Part shown: positions 25,201 to 28,200 of the stretch, in pieces
Layout: every line of letters begins with the position of its first letter
How positions within the stretch are numbered: position 1 is the first letter of the stretch
Virus record (IMG/VR): IMGVR_UViG_2563366903_000020
Strand: one strand, 5' to 3'
Source: a virus
Taxonomy: Duplodnaviria; Heunggongvirae; Uroviricota; Caudoviricetes
Length of the DNA stretch: 37,235 bases
Made by a program: the position numbers

Positions 25201-28200
25201 GATGCGCTTTAACCCCTATGCCCTGCTTCTGGATAACGCCAGCTGACGCGCTTCGCTTGTCTGCTGCTTCGCCGGGGCATAAAAAATTTATGCCCCGACT
25301 CTCCAGCTCCTGACGTCCGTTTCCCTCCCGATCTCCGACCTCGCCAGACGCATTCTGACGGCCTGTTTCCCTGACCATGTTTTGATGTGGTTTTTTAAAA
25401 CAGGCTTTACTGCTGGCGTATCACGCGCAATACGACCCCAAATAAAGCAACCTGCCTTCCACCCCTCAATTCGGGCGCCCTTCCCTCGTCGCCTGCGCAC
25501 TGCAATTGCCTCGTTTTTCGTGCACCGTGCAAACCGGCCTCAGCCAGCGCCGTTACTGGGCTGAATGGGGATGAAACACATAAGAAAAATTGTGCAATTT
25601 CGTGCGCTTTTGTGCATTTTTTATCTTGCGATTTTTGGGGGTGGGTGGTGATGATAATCATCTGTCTGAATCAGTGGGAGACTGCCGGGTGAGAACTGTG
25701 AAAAATTACTCATATCCTTATTTAACTTTTGTCACGCTTTCTGTTTTGGGGGGGATTTTTCTTTTTATTTGGTGGCGAAACGATGTTTACAGAATTACCT
25801 ACCTTTATTCGTTCACGACAAACTGCCTTGTTTCAGTGTCTGTGGTGCTTTCGGTTTTTGTCTCACTGTGCCTGTTGAAAAAGAACCTGGTTGATCGGTC
25901 TAAATTTACCGGGGTTACATCGTATCTTAAGTTTTTTTCGGGTATGTGCCTTCTTACCTGGATGATTCTGTTTACCCTCCTCGTTACGCTGATATATTTT
26001 CTTCCGGGTGAAGATTCATTCTATTCCGCTCCCTATGAGTACAGTCGCGGTAGCTCAAAAAGTTGTTCAGGGGCATTTGTTGATGATCCTGATTTGCAAA
26101 AAACAATCTTTATTTGCTACCCATACGGTGACTATCAGGATGGTAATGTGATTTATGTGAAGAAGCGTGTGAATGCGCTGGGTGCGGTGGTCACCTATGC
26201 ATACGCGACAAGCGGCCGATTTCGGTTTGACTGAAAAAAGAAATCCTGTGTTACCCTCGCTGCTGAGGGTAACATGCGTGAAGTCATCGCCCGGTTCTTG
26301 AGCTGATAATGCTTTGCGCCAGCAACTGCCAGCCCTCTTTCTGTTGCCCGTACTTGTCCTGATACCTGTTTACCTGCAAGTTTCCGTGCACCAGAATCAG
26401 ATCGCCTTTTCTGTGTTTTGCCAGTTCTTCGTGCTGCTTCCCGAATGAAATAAGGTAAAGCCACATTGTGGTTGGCTGTTCTGCGCCATGGCAGGGTAGT
26501 GATACCGCCAGTTGTGCCGTTGTGACGTTGGTTCCTTTGGTTGTTCTCCTTGTGTTCGGGTCTGCTGCCAGTCGTCCCTCTGTTGCAACCTGTGTTGGCA
26601 TATTTGTCTCCCGTGTTGGTTTTATTGTTGGGGTTAGATGACTGGCAGCTCTTCGCCAGCGCCGTAGATAAACAGAATTCTCTTCATGATTTCGCTGCGC
26701 TTGCAGGCTTCAATTACGGACGGCTCTTGTTGCCATTCTGCCCGTTGCGCCAGCTCCAGTCGTTCCTTTTCCGTTGGCTTCCGGTAATGCGTTATCTTGT
26801 CCGTGTACCCGTCCACAACCAGCAGCCCTTCGCGTACCATCTTTCCGGCGGCCTGATTAATGATGGTCCTTTTCACGCCCAGTTTTTCAACCAGCTCTGG
26901 TGCGCTGAAGCGTGCGTGCGTTTCCAGGTAGCGTAAAATGATTACCTTTCCGGTCATTCTGGGTGTCTTCATTTGGCGGCTCCTTCGTTGTTCCGGCGTT
27001 CGCGGAGTTCGGTCAGTGCTGTCAGTAAATTTTCCCACCATGTTTCTTCCACAACCGGATTTCGTCGTGAAAGCAGCTGCTGCGCCGACTCAATCATTTT
27101 CGTAAGCTCTTTGTCGCTGATCCTCCTGATGTCGTTCATTGTGTGCTCCTTCGGTTTGCTGTTTCTGGTCATGTTCATGGTCTTTTGTTACCTGCGTGAT
27201 TGCCTGCTGGCGGCCGAATGCACATAGCGGACAATTGCCGCTTTTCGGTTAACGACGGCCAGCGTTCTTGCCAGTTCTTCGTTGAGTTTTCTTGTCTGTT
27301 TTTCGTGGTATGCCTGCATGATTTTTCCTACGGGAGTCAGTGGTTCAGGCTCTGATATGGCGCGACGAGGGCGCACGGCAACGATGAATGCGCTTCTGTC
27401 GGTGTTGATTCTTGCAGTCAGGATGTCGGTCATGACGGTATCTGTGCTGCGATCGGGGTTTGCGATCGTGATCTCCAGTTCGTCGCCTGGCTGTGGTCGA
27501 ACACTGACGCCGCTCAGCGTCAGTGCGGGAATGCGTCCACTCATGATGGCGCTGAAATCATGGTGCTGGAGTACACAATGGAATCGTGTCATGGGTTCAC
27601 CTCCGGTTGATCTGCTGCCACCAGGCTTCGTGATTTCTCATCCCAGTGCACAATCCGCCCGTCAGGCAGGCGAACGCGTGCACCTCTGTGTACGGAAAGT
27701 GCTGCGCCACTGTGTAGCTCCTCGCCCGTCGCGCTCAGTGCCGACTTGATTACGGTGGTGGTGACGTCAGTCAGCGGCAATGCTGTACGCACATGTATGA
27801 CGTCATCGGGCGTGGTGGGGCCGCCGGTTTTCACGGTTTTTGTGTCAGATGGCGCATCTTTCAGCTGCCTGGTGAGTTGTTTTCGCTTTGTGGGGGTCAG
27901 TGACCTTAACCACTCACCCAAATCACCTCCCGGGACGACCAGTTTTTGTTCTTTCCTGGTTTCCGGTGGTGGGTTTTTACCCTCTCCGGTGTCTGTTTTT
28001 TCATCATGGGGACAGTTATTGCCACGAGTCCAAGGTGCGGCGAAGCCGCCCCCAACGTCAAAATCCTCGTCCGTGCTGTTGTCGGCTTTCGCTTCTTTTC
28101 TGACCAGTTCCCACTCGTCCGGATGGGTGCAGATGGTGTAGCGCTCGCCGAGCGACGGGGCACAAATTCCGTAGATGCGCTGCGGGAATTCGCCGTAGTC

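What the first reader, a model, noticed from the sequence alone, without database searches (positions are those of the whole stretch)
26284..27592. Four-gene operon translationally coupled to gene A includes a short SSB-like OB-fold protein and a winged-helix protein
Downstream of A, four small ORFs (134, 69, 112 and 105 aa) are packed with overlapping stop/start codons (ATGA at 27589-27592 and at 26969-26972). The last one aligns by eye with the OB core of SSB but lacks the acidic C-terminal tail, and the third has an HTH-like segment. P2 itself has orf91, tin and old here, so this is a different module. It could be a replication accessory set, an anti-defence module or an SOS-linked derepression module like tum in phage 186, but I found no LexA box.
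Basis: partly seen in the sequence, partly recalled or inferred. Interest (0 to 1): 0.55.

Follow-up and report, generated by a model that had tools for sequence, protein, structure and literature searches.

The report
Ren and tail-less SSB behind gene A
Four real small genes follow the replication gene A of a P2-like E. coli prophage: an orphan ASCH-like protein, a tiny helical protein, a homologue of lambda's anti-exclusion protein Ren and a short SSB without the usual acidic tail. The set is a modestly new combination of known parts.

Summary
Four minus-strand ORFs with Shine-Dalgarno sites follow gene A. Two junctions are ATGA stop/start overlaps, and a hairpin terminator follows the last gene. 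All four are under purifying selection (dN/dS 0.1-0.5).

- **105-aa protein:** a genuine SSB-type OB fold (Pfam SSB 52 bits; AF2 pLDDT 87; TM about 0.8 to SSB cores) with no acidic C-terminal tip.
- **Winged-helix protein:** more precisely a full-length homologue of lambda Ren (42% identity, E 2e-24). In lambda, ren is likewise the co-translated last gene of the replication operon.
- **69-aa ORF:** most likely a 56-aa protein.

The set is nested, not a fixed unit. A, orf134 and orf56 are always present, Ren usually, SSB only sometimes. SSB has been lost by deletion, IS3 insertion or decay.

No LexA box, Tum, DinI, PriB or defence-model match was found. The truly variable cargo lies beyond the terminator.

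Best reading: a replication-accessory and anti-exclusion tail of the A operon. PGAP already annotates these genes, and a published hotspot table lists them uncharacterised. Interest is moderate.

The parts
27589..30102 (-). Gene A, rolling-circle replication endonuclease (837 aa). Its last ~150 codons form a variable block together with orf134.
   Evidence: Pfam Phage_GPA 2e-108 and phrog_91. 31% identity to P2 gpA. Allele classes of residues 680-837 match those of orf134.
28010..28047 (-). Putative origin (nick region) inside gene A.
   Evidence: GGCTTCGCCGCACCTTGGACTCGTGGCAATAACTGTCC resembles the P2 sequence GGCATCGCCGCGCCTCGGAGTCCTGTCAATAACTGTGG around the annotated P2 ori nick. This rests on similarity by eye only. 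The divergent block starts just downstream.
27188..27592 (-). orf134: N-terminal ASCH/PUA-like beta-barrel (residues 1-76) plus a long basic C-terminal helix (87-133). The start overlaps the A stop (ATGA).
26969..27139 (-). orf56: small protein of unknown function, guessed to be helical from its sequence alone (not modelled).
   Evidence: phrog_14672 2.4e-34 over residues 14-69 of the long form. AGGAG lies before 27139. PGAP annotates 171 nt. Present in every related locus that reaches this position. dN/dS 0.21-0.53.
26634..26972 (-). Ren homologue (112 aa, winged helix). The start overlaps the orf56 stop (ATGA). The alignment to lambda Ren begins at M6.
   Evidence: BLASTP to lambda Ren: 42% identity, E 2e-24, full length. 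phrog_142 'Ren-like exclusion protein' 1.1e-28. 170 phage records match, and in every row shown the match lies next to replication gene P. MarR_2 scores 25 bits, below the cut-off of 27. dN/dS 0.10-0.29.
26284..26601 (-). Tail-less SSB-family OB-fold protein (105 aa).
   Evidence: Pfam SSB 6.6e-14. PDB SSBs down to 1e-9. AF2 pLDDT 86.8, pTM 0.76. Foldseek TM 0.75-0.8 to SSB cores. The equivalents of EcSSB W54, F60 and W88 (here Y) are kept, W40 is lost in a 4-residue shorter loop, and there is no acidic tip. dN/dS 0.15-0.33.
26234..26274 (-). Terminator-like hairpin (26249-26274, 10 bp stem) followed by a U-rich run (26234-26243), directly after the ssb stop.
   Evidence: RNA fold -19.9 kcal/mol, z -3.4 against shuffles. 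The simple scan did not list it because the T run starts 5 nt after the stem.

Best explanation
The four ORFs are the promoter-distal tail of the replication (gene A) operon of a P2-like E. coli prophage. They are made only when A is made, that is, during lytic growth.

They form a layered set of replication helpers and self-protection genes.
1. **orf134** is an ASCH/PUA-like nucleic-acid-binding barrel with a basic helix. It probably works with the C-terminal domain of A at or near the origin, because the two are exchanged together as one cassette that begins just past the ori.
2. **orf56** is a small partner of unknown role that always accompanies orf134.
3. **The Ren homologue** probably does here what ren does at the end of lambda's O-P-ren operon. 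There it keeps the phage's own replication from triggering Rex-type abortive exclusion by a resident prophage.
4. **The tail-less SSB** probably coats the single strand displaced by rolling-circle replication. Because it lacks the acidic tip, it would not recruit the host proteins that dock on that tip. This would protect or mask the intermediate.

Shown here: gene reality, the folds, the homologies, the gene order and the co-variation. Inferred: co-transcription with A, the A/orf134 partnership, Rex-type protection, and ssDNA binding and its consequence.
For: - **Operon architecture.**
  - There are ATGA overlaps at A/orf134 and orf56/ren. The other gaps are only 48 and 32 nt, and every start has an SD site.
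  - No promoter-like site lies on the minus strand between 30102 and 26284.
  - A hairpin with a U run follows ssb.
  - G+C is 50-55%, like the rest of the phage. The next, convergent gene has about 40%.
- **Ren.**
  - Homology to lambda Ren is full length.
  - Lambda ren also overlaps the stop of P by ATGA.
  - O, P and ren are described as co-translated. ren mutants are Rex-sensitive, with suppressors in O and P, and Ren binds RexA and RexB in two-hybrid assays (supplement of bioRxiv 10.1101/2021.04.19.439022).
- **SSB.** The fold and three of the four stacking aromatic residues are retained.
- **orf134.**
  - The fold is ASCH-like.
  - The three allele classes of A residues 680-837 coincide exactly with the three classes of orf134. 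The A core groups the loci differently, and orf56 and Ren stay 75-100% identical.
- **P2 analogy.** orf91 is co-directional and overlaps the A stop, while the lysogenic-conversion genes tin and old are convergent.
- **Selection.** All four ORFs are under purifying selection.
Against: - No expression data exist. A weak internal promoter cannot be excluded by a consensus scan.
- SSB and Ren are dispensable for prophage persistence.
  - SSB is absent in L008-L010, deleted with a scar in L009, split by IS3 in L006 and decayed in L007/P0008.
  - Ren is absent in L010.
- Co-variation of A's C-terminus with orf134 could reflect physical adjacency alone.
- The ASCH signature motif is not kept (GRIPALTL instead of GxKTxTxR, compared from my memory of the YqfB sequence), and no sequence HMM recognises orf134.
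- Whether P2-like phages are sensitive to Rex at all is unknown to me.
- Ren's own mechanism is unsolved, so 'works like Ren' names a phenotype, not a mechanism.
Confidence: 0.55

Rival explanations
1. The SSB, with or without Ren, is cargo of the gpA-gpQ defence hotspot. On this reading it is a lysogen-expressed anti-phage or exclusion function, for example a dominant-negative or decoy SSB that poisons the replication of superinfecting phages.
For: - The locus lies in the published P2 hotspot between gpA and gpQ (PMC9122126; PMC9519451).
- This very arrangement (WP_016237831, WP_001537149, WP_096122283) is listed in that paper's supplementary table of hotspot loci.
- SSB and Ren show presence/absence polymorphism.
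- From my knowledge of P2, Tin, encoded at the same hotspot, acts through the T4 SSB gp32. One search confirms only its position and that it blocks T-even phages.
Against: - No PADLOC model reaches significance for any of the four proteins.
- G+C matches the phage, whereas the convergent neighbour is at about 40%.
- The genes share A's strand, with overlapping or near-abutting ORFs. There is no promoter-like site, and the terminator comes only after ssb.
- The truly variable cargo lies beyond the terminator: orf178 here, a TumE-type TA pair in L009 and L011.
- L009 and L011 share the same cargo but differ in ssb through a deletion scar, so ssb is not part of the swapped cargo.
- In lambda, Ren is a counter-exclusion gene, not a defence gene.
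Confidence: 0.15
2. The 105-aa protein is a PriB-like primosome or lagging-strand factor rather than a generic ssDNA coat. It would help convert the displaced strand to duplex, replacing the role of P2 gene B.
For: - Its size (105 aa) and lack of a tail resemble PriB, an SSB-derived OB protein (my knowledge of PriB).
- P2 needs gene B for lagging-strand synthesis (annotation).
- I saw no B homologue named in the annotation of this prophage.
Against: - NCBIfam returns 19 SSB models and no PriB model.
- The top 50 Foldseek PDB hits are all SSB cores.
- The gene is often lost, which is unexpected for an essential replication factor.
Confidence: 0.07
3. The module is an SOS-linked derepression or induction module like tum/orf97 of phage 186, or like the DinI genes found after A in other P2-like prophages.
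For: - Phage 186 carries the LexA-controlled tum operon right after A.
- Many hotspot loci in the published table contain DinI.
- The winged-helix protein could in principle be a regulator.
Against: - No LexA box with at most 1 mismatch lies in an intergenic position here. The only nearby match (27491) is inside orf134, and the window total is at chance level.
- There are no Tum, DinI or Derepression hits for the four proteins.
- No separate promoter was found.
- A Derepression-family gene with C4 and isrK RNAs lies upstream of A instead.
Confidence: 0.03
4. The Ren-like protein is an ordinary MarR-type transcription factor, as PGAP names it. On this reading it regulates the neighbouring cargo or the operon, and the SSB is a decaying leftover with no current role.
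For: - PGAP names it 'MarR family transcriptional regulator'.
- MarR_2 scores 25 bits and GntR 19.6 bits.
- Copies of ssb are frequently inactivated.
Against: - The MarR hits are below the gathering cut-offs and cover only about 45 residues. Homology to Ren spans the whole protein at E 2e-24.
- At 112 aa the protein lacks the dimerisation helices of MarR proteins, which are typically about 140-150 aa (my knowledge).
- Intact ssb copies show dN/dS 0.15-0.33 across 4-20% protein divergence, so they are not drifting.
Confidence: 0.1

Closest known systems
Lambda Ren (last gene of the O-P-ren replication operon of lambdoid phages)
   Same: - Homology is full length (42% identity, E 2e-24).
- The proteins are similar in size.
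- In both phages the gene sits towards the 3' end of the replication operon (the last gene in lambda, followed only by ssb here), and the start overlaps the preceding stop by ATGA.
   Different: - The replication module is a rolling-circle A-type nickase, not an O-P initiator/helicase-loader. The literature quoted says ren accompanies O-P-type modules.
- Of the best 80 Ren loci in IMG/VR, 76 are lambdoid (75 with P, one with only NinB in reach) and only 4 are this P2-like type.
- Here it follows orf56, not the replication protein itself.
- It has an extra 5 N-terminal residues and about 10 C-terminal residues.
Bacterial SSB (PF00436), and naturally tail-less paralogues such as B. subtilis SsbB
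   Same: - The OB core matches: Pfam 52 bits, and TM 0.75-0.8 to SsbA and SsbB cores.
- The aromatic residues equivalent to EcSSB W54, F60 and W88 are retained.
- Like B. subtilis SsbB, described in PMC3384303 (listed), it is essentially a bare OB domain.
   Different: - It has no Gly/Pro-rich linker and no acidic tip.
- The L23 loop is shorter by 4 residues and lacks the W40 equivalent, and H55 is replaced by L.
- It shares only 26-36% identity with any SSB outside its own small family, and all of those are longer.
- It is encoded in a P2-like prophage.
P2 orf91 (the gene after A in phage P2)
   Same: It occupies the same slot. It runs in the same direction as A, and its start overlaps the A stop by 4 nt.
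   Different: There is no detectable homology to orf134 (hhalign probability 0.1%). P2 has one gene in this slot, whereas this prophage has four.
ASCH / DUF3850 (PUA-like) domain proteins, e.g. 3iuw and E. coli YqfB
   Different: - No sequence-profile match was found.
- The conserved GxKTxTxR-type motif reads GRIPALTL, so the lysine is missing (my reading against YqfB from memory).
- It carries an extra 47-residue C-terminal helix.
- The family is confined to this prophage lineage.
Phage 186 tum/orf97 SOS operon and the DinI genes downstream of A in other P2-like prophages
   Same: They occupy the same genomic neighbourhood, between A and the portal gene.
   Different: - Those genes have their own LexA-controlled promoter and unrelated proteins.
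- None of that is present here.

Membership tests
SSB family (PF00436) | OB-fold core recognised by the family profile | tested here: met
   Pfam 52.3 bits against a cut-off of 26. The TIGR00621 subfamily model scores 48.8 bits, just under its cut-off of 53.95. AF2 model plus Foldseek give TM 0.75-0.8 to SSB cores.
SSB family (PF00436) | ssDNA-stacking aromatic residues (EcSSB W40, W54, F60, W88) | tested here: inconclusive
   W54, F60 and W88 (as Y) have equivalents. W40 is lost with a 4-residue loop deletion. Binding itself was not tested.
SSB family (PF00436) | Flexible linker and acidic C-terminal tip (DDDIPF-like) that recruits partner proteins | tested here: not met
   The protein ends at residue 105 with ...SIISSRTGR.
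SSB family (PF00436) | Homotetramer (or dimer of two-OB chains) | not testable with these tools
   Only monomer prediction was available. The H55 equivalent is L.
Lambda Ren family (phrog_142) | Full-length sequence homology to Ren | tested here: met
   BLASTP 42% identity, E 2e-24 over residues 6-104 against 1-93 of 96. phrog_142 1.1e-28.
Lambda Ren family (phrog_142) | Position at the 3' end of the replication operon, translationally coupled | tested here: met
   ATGA overlap with the preceding ORF both here and in lambda.
Lambda Ren family (phrog_142) | Association with an O-P type initiator/helicase-loader module | tested here: not met
   The upstream replication gene is a Phage_GPA nickase. 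No O or P homologue lies in the P2-like loci.
Lambda Ren family (phrog_142) | Confers resistance to Rex exclusion | not testable with these tools
   This is a genetic phenotype. It needs plating on Rex+ lysogens.
MarR family regulators (the PGAP name) | MarR-type wHTH above the family cut-off, with dimerisation helices (about 140-150 aa) | tested here: not met
   MarR_2 scores 25.0 against 27, and MarR 13 against 24.6. Only residues 10-53 match. The protein is 112 aa.
ASCH domain (PF04266) / PUA-like | Beta-barrel fold of the ASCH/PUA-like superfamily | tested here: met
ASCH domain (PF04266) / PUA-like | Recognition by the sequence profile and a conserved Lys-containing motif | tested here: not met
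   No Pfam hit at E<=1. The motif region reads GRIPALTL. The comparison with YqfB is from memory.
PriB | Match to PriB models, or closest structural similarity to PriB | tested here: not met
   Only SSB models appear in NCBIfam. The top 50 PDB fold hits are all SSB.
Tum / DinI / SOS-controlled module | LexA box with its own promoter, plus Tum or DinI homology | tested here: not met
   The 186 reference layout is.
Known anti-phage defence systems (PADLOC) | Significant match to a defence-system protein model | tested here: not met
   The best hits are a generic winged-helix model at 7.6e-4 and BrxA at 0.018, neither convincing.

The most novel reading that the evidence does not exclude
The tail of the A operon is a 'replication shield'. 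A Ren protein has been uncoupled from lambda O and P, together with a tail-less SSB. The two jointly hide rolling-circle ssDNA intermediates from Rex-type and other replication-sensing abortive-infection systems. The ori-proximal A C-terminal domain and orf134 form a fast-diverging specificity pair that is itself the target of such sensing or of satellite interference. If true, Ren acts on something common to theta (O-P) and rolling-circle (A) replication. That would narrow a 45-year-old open question about Ren and what triggers Rex.
Probability: 0.15. Interest if true: 0.7.

Novelty: new variant of a known kind. Interest (0 to 1): 0.4.

Why it matters
**Ren.** Ren has been treated as an appendage of lambda-type O-P replication modules, and its mechanism is unknown. 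Here a clear Ren homologue is translationally coupled into the replication operon of a phage with an unrelated, rolling-circle initiator. This argues that Ren's target is not O or P themselves, and it offers a second, simpler genetic system in which to test what Ren does.

**SSB.** The tail-less SSB is a natural experiment in separating ssDNA coating from recruitment of host partner proteins during phage replication.

**A and orf134.** The co-varying cassette of A's C-terminal domain and orf134, which starts just past the origin, points to an unrecognised accessory partner of P2-type replication proteins.

**Hotspot surveys.** Not everything between gpA and gpQ is defence cargo. Part of it is the tail of the replication operon.

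Tried and rejected
- **Phage DNA searches.** Megablast and blastn of the 1.6-kb region against 50,697 phage records found nothing. No sequenced isolated phage carries the module at DNA level.
- **Phage protein searches.** tblastn with orf134 found nothing. tblastn with the SSB found only a 34% hit in a Faecalibacterium phage.
- **Species-representative genomes.** Two scans, one with the SSB and one with an orf134 alignment, found no relative.
- **Exhaustive profile search with orf134.** It found only 3 real clusters. The four weak hits to long repetitive proteins were disregarded.
- **PADLOC.** Nothing convincing.
- **LexA box.** Nothing above chance.
- **P2 Orf91 against orf134.** No homology.
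- **PDB profile searches.** The Ren and orf134 profiles gave nothing significant, so no solved Ren structure turned up.
- **Resources not available.** AFDB50 fold search was not on the machine. The most relevant Ren paper (Thomason and Court 2022, PMC9529316) is not held.
- **Literature.** Searches for tail-less prophage SSBs and for ASCH proteins in phage replication found nothing on this module.
- **Plus-strand ORFs.** I considered the shadow ORFs 26541-26936 and 27282-27749 as alternatives. I rejected them because the minus-strand frames carry the homologies, the SD sites and dN/dS below 1.
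Full report
**What is there**

On the minus strand, gene A runs from 30102 to 27589. It encodes 837 aa (Pfam Phage_GPA 2e-108, phrog_91) and is 31% identical to P2 gpA. It is followed by four ORFs.

| ORF | Coordinates | Size | Junction with the previous gene |
|---|---|---|---|
| orf134 | 27592-27188 | 134 aa | ATG overlaps the A stop (ATGA at 27592-27589) |
| small ORF | ends at 26969 | 56 aa (69 aa as the longest ORF) | 48-nt gap after orf134 |
| Ren-like | 26972-26634 | 112 aa | ATG overlaps the small-ORF stop (ATGA at 26972-26969) |
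| SSB-like | 26601-26284 | 105 aa | 32-nt gap after the Ren-like gene |

The overlaps, gaps and ribosome sites were read from the sequence. Each start has a Shine-Dalgarno motif 6-8 nt upstream.

Three things point to a 56-aa protein starting at 27139:
- an AGGAG lies in front of 27139;
- the PHROG profile covers only residues 14-69;
- PGAP annotates 171 nt.

A 10-bp hairpin (26249-26274, -19.9 kcal/mol, z -3.4) followed by a U-rich run comes directly after the ssb stop. The consensus scan finds no sigma-70-like site on the minus strand between A and ssb.

G+C is 50-55% across the four ORFs, like the rest of the phage. The next gene, a convergent plus-strand ORF at 25698-26234, has about 40%.

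**Are they genes?**

Yes.
- Pairwise dN/dS against seven related loci is 0.10-0.53 for each ORF, with protein divergence from 3% to 40%.
- RefSeq/PGAP annotates the same genes in E. coli chromosomes as 'hypothetical, hypothetical, MarR family transcriptional regulator, single-stranded DNA-binding protein'. They sit in a P2-like prophage next to dmsA.
- The 1309-base region is found in 67 of 5426 complete E. coli genomes, and 27 hold at least 80% of it.
- It is absent from 50,697 phage records at DNA level and from one-genome-per-species bacterial contigs.

**The 105-aa protein**

- It matches Pfam SSB at 52.3 bits (cut-off 26) and solved SSBs down to E 1e-9.
- An AlphaFold model built on a 42-sequence alignment has pLDDT 86.8 and pTM 0.76. 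It shows the five-strand barrel with the helix between strands 3 and 4.
- Its best PDB neighbours are all SSB cores (S. aureus SsbA and SsbB, B. subtilis SsbA), with TM 0.75-0.8.
- No PriB model or structure appears.
- Aligned with E. coli SSB, it keeps the equivalents of W54, F60 and W88 (as Tyr). It loses W40 with a 4-residue shortening of the L23 loop, and it has Leu for H55.
- It stops at ...SIISSRTGR, with no linker or acidic tip.
- The family is tiny, a few 90% clusters. It is only 26-36% identical to any other SSB, and all of those are longer.

**The winged-helix protein is Ren**

- PHROGs places it in phrog_142, 'Ren-like exclusion protein' (1.1e-28).
- tblastn finds 170 phage records, all below 60% identity. 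In every row shown the match lies next to replication gene P.
- BLASTP against lambda Ren gives 42% identity over essentially the whole protein, E 2e-24.
- The MarR_2 and GntR hits that underlie the PGAP name are below their cut-offs and cover only about 45 residues.
- In lambda, ren starts with an ATGA overlap on the stop of P.

The supplement of Thomason et al. (bioRxiv 10.1101/2021.04.19.439022) summarises what is known about ren:
- O, P and ren are co-translated.
- Phages with initiator/helicase-loader modules have ren.
- ren mutants are excluded by Rex, with suppressors in O and P.
- Ren interacts with RexA and RexB in two-hybrid assays.
- Its function remains unidentified.

Among the best 80 Ren-encoding loci in IMG/VR, 75 carry lambda P (most with O), one shows only NinB, and 4 are this P2-like context. 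The identity gap is sharp: 93-100% within the P2-like group against 40-45% for the lambdoid loci. So this is a distinct Ren subfamily attached to a rolling-circle replication gene.

**orf134 and orf56**

- orf134 has no Pfam, NCBIfam or PADLOC hit.
- An exhaustive profile search of 1.84 billion representatives finds just three clusters.
- Its AlphaFold model (pLDDT 84.8) has an N-terminal beta-barrel (residues 1-76) and a 47-residue basic C-terminal helix.
- The viral library returns DUF3850/ASCH proteins.
- The ASCH motif region reads GRIPALTL, so the usual lysine is missing. This is my comparison with YqfB from memory.
- orf56 belongs to phrog_14672, of unknown function. From its sequence I guess it is a short helical protein. 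It was not modelled.

**Nested conservation, not a fixed unit**

In six IMG/VR loci all the genes within reach of each locus are present, in the same order. Two loci are cut before A and orf134, and in one ssb is split by an insertion.

| E. coli locus | orf134 + orf56 | Ren | SSB | What follows |
|---|---|---|---|---|
| L011 | yes | yes | yes | TumE-type TA pair |
| L009 | yes | yes | no | same TumE-type TA pair |
| L008 | yes | yes | no | Ogr and portal |
| L010 | yes | no | no | two small hypothetical genes, Ogr and portal |

- L009 keeps the ssb ribosome site and the first codons, with ATG changed to ATA. The sequence then jumps to the DNA upstream of the same toxin-antitoxin cargo that L011 carries. 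This is a deletion scar, so ssb was lost rather than never gained.
- In L006 ssb is split by an IS3-family element.
- The L007 copy and protein P0008 carry internal deletions, and P0008 also a frameshift.

Thus ssb is conditionally dispensable, while intact copies remain under purifying selection. The variable cargo begins after the terminator: orf178 here, a TumE-type TA pair elsewhere.

**A co-varying cassette starting at the origin**

A sliding comparison shows identity to L005, L011 and L009 at 87-100% through most of A. It then drops to 60-75% from about 28000 to about 27150, and recovers over orf56 and ren.

| Segment | How the loci group | Identity |
|---|---|---|
| A residues 680-837 | class I: window, L002, L003; class II: L005, L011, L009; class III: L008, L010 | 52-70% between classes |
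| orf134 | the same three classes | 53-61% between classes |
| A core | {window, L003, L005, L011, L009} against {L002, L008, L010} | 82-86% between the two groups |
| orf56 and Ren | no such classes | 75-100% throughout |

The block starts just downstream of 28047-28010. That sequence closely resembles the region around the annotated P2 ori nick. This suggests that the C-terminal domain of A and orf134 function together. Simple linkage of adjacent DNA is the alternative.

**Comparison with P2 and 186**

- In P2, orf91 follows A in the same direction with a 4-nt overlap, while tin and old are convergent with their own promoter. The four ORFs therefore occupy the orf91 slot, the tail of the early operon. 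The convergent low-GC orf178 occupies the tin/old slot.
- orf91 and orf134 are not homologous.
- In 186, tum has its own LexA-controlled promoter after A. Nothing like that is present here.

**Published status**

Rousset et al. 2022 (PMC9122126) define the gpA-gpQ interval as a defence hotspot. Their supplementary table lists this arrangement ('hypothetical + SSB + hypothetical + hypothetical', with WP_016237831, WP_001537149 and WP_096122283), while 'SSB' occurs nowhere in their main text, so it appears uncharacterised. I found no paper on the module.

**Interpretation**

The best-supported reading (about 0.55) is that this is the promoter-distal tail of the replication operon.
- An A-associated ASCH-like factor and its small companion come first.
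- A Ren-type counter-exclusion protein follows.
- An optional tail-less SSB comes last. It would coat rolling-circle ssDNA without recruiting host SSB-tip partners.

| Rival | Rough weight |
|---|---|
| Hotspot defence cargo | 0.15 |
| Plain MarR regulator with a decaying ssb | 0.10 |
| PriB-like primosome factor | 0.07 |
| SOS/Tum-like module | 0.03 |

Co-transcription, ssDNA binding, Rex protection and the A/orf134 partnership are inferences. None was shown here.

**Verdict**

The parts belong to known families (SSB, Ren, ASCH-like fold). Three things are new:
- their combination behind a rolling-circle initiator;
- Ren outside an O-P module;
- the cassette of A's C-terminal domain with orf134.

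Interest is moderate (0.4).

Noticed in passing
window 30862-30949 (-) and 30985-31059 (-); gene at 30584-30805 (-): Rfam finds a C4 antisense RNA (82 bits) and an isrK Hfq-binding sRNA (67 bits) directly upstream, on the same strand, of a 73-aa Derepression-family protein (PF25738, 27.9 bits). Next come orf138 and gene A. The A operon therefore seems to start with a P1 immI-like / Gifsy-1 isrK-like RNA-controlled anti-repressor cassette.
   Followed up: partly
window 25698-26234 (+): A convergent 178-aa ORF with about 40% G+C lies between ssb and the portal gene. Its C-terminal half matches phrog_1416 (unknown function), and it has no Pfam or PADLOC hit. It occupies the tin/old position and is replaced by other cargo in related prophages, for example a TumE/HVO_A0114 toxin-antitoxin pair in L009 and L011. 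It is probably the real hotspot moron.
   Followed up: partly
window ~28050-27150 (-); loci L002, L003, L005, L008-L011: The last ~150 codons of A and orf134 form one recombination block with three allele classes. The block begins just downstream of a P2-like ori sequence (28010-28047), so the origin may be a recombination breakpoint.
   Followed up: partly
L006 3848-5155: An IS3-family element (orfA and orfB with an rve-type transposase) is inserted in the ssb gene of one IMG/VR contig.
   Followed up: yes
L009 ~4470-4500, compared with L011 4225-4900: A deletion scar is visible. The ssb ribosome site and first codons remain (ATG changed to ATA), then the sequence joins DNA upstream of the TA cargo. 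ssb was lost by deletion in this lineage.
   Followed up: yes
window 30099-30515 (-): orf138 (phrog_3237, unknown function) ends with a 4-nt overlap on the A start. This recalls 186 orf84, whose translation is annotated as needed for translation of A.
   Followed up: no
window 15305-17371 (-): A 688-aa ORF, annotated by PGAP as a DUF6645 domain protein, sits between the lysis genes and the tail-completion genes of the prophage. Its size and position suggest a second accessory-gene insertion.
   Followed up: no
window 31186-31659 (+): A plus-strand gene (phrog_6315; PGAP annotates a 215-aa hypothetical protein) interrupts the leftward early region. It lies between the DUF4406/Dam/exonuclease genes and the isrK-C4 cassette, which suggests two separate leftward transcription units.
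   Followed up: no
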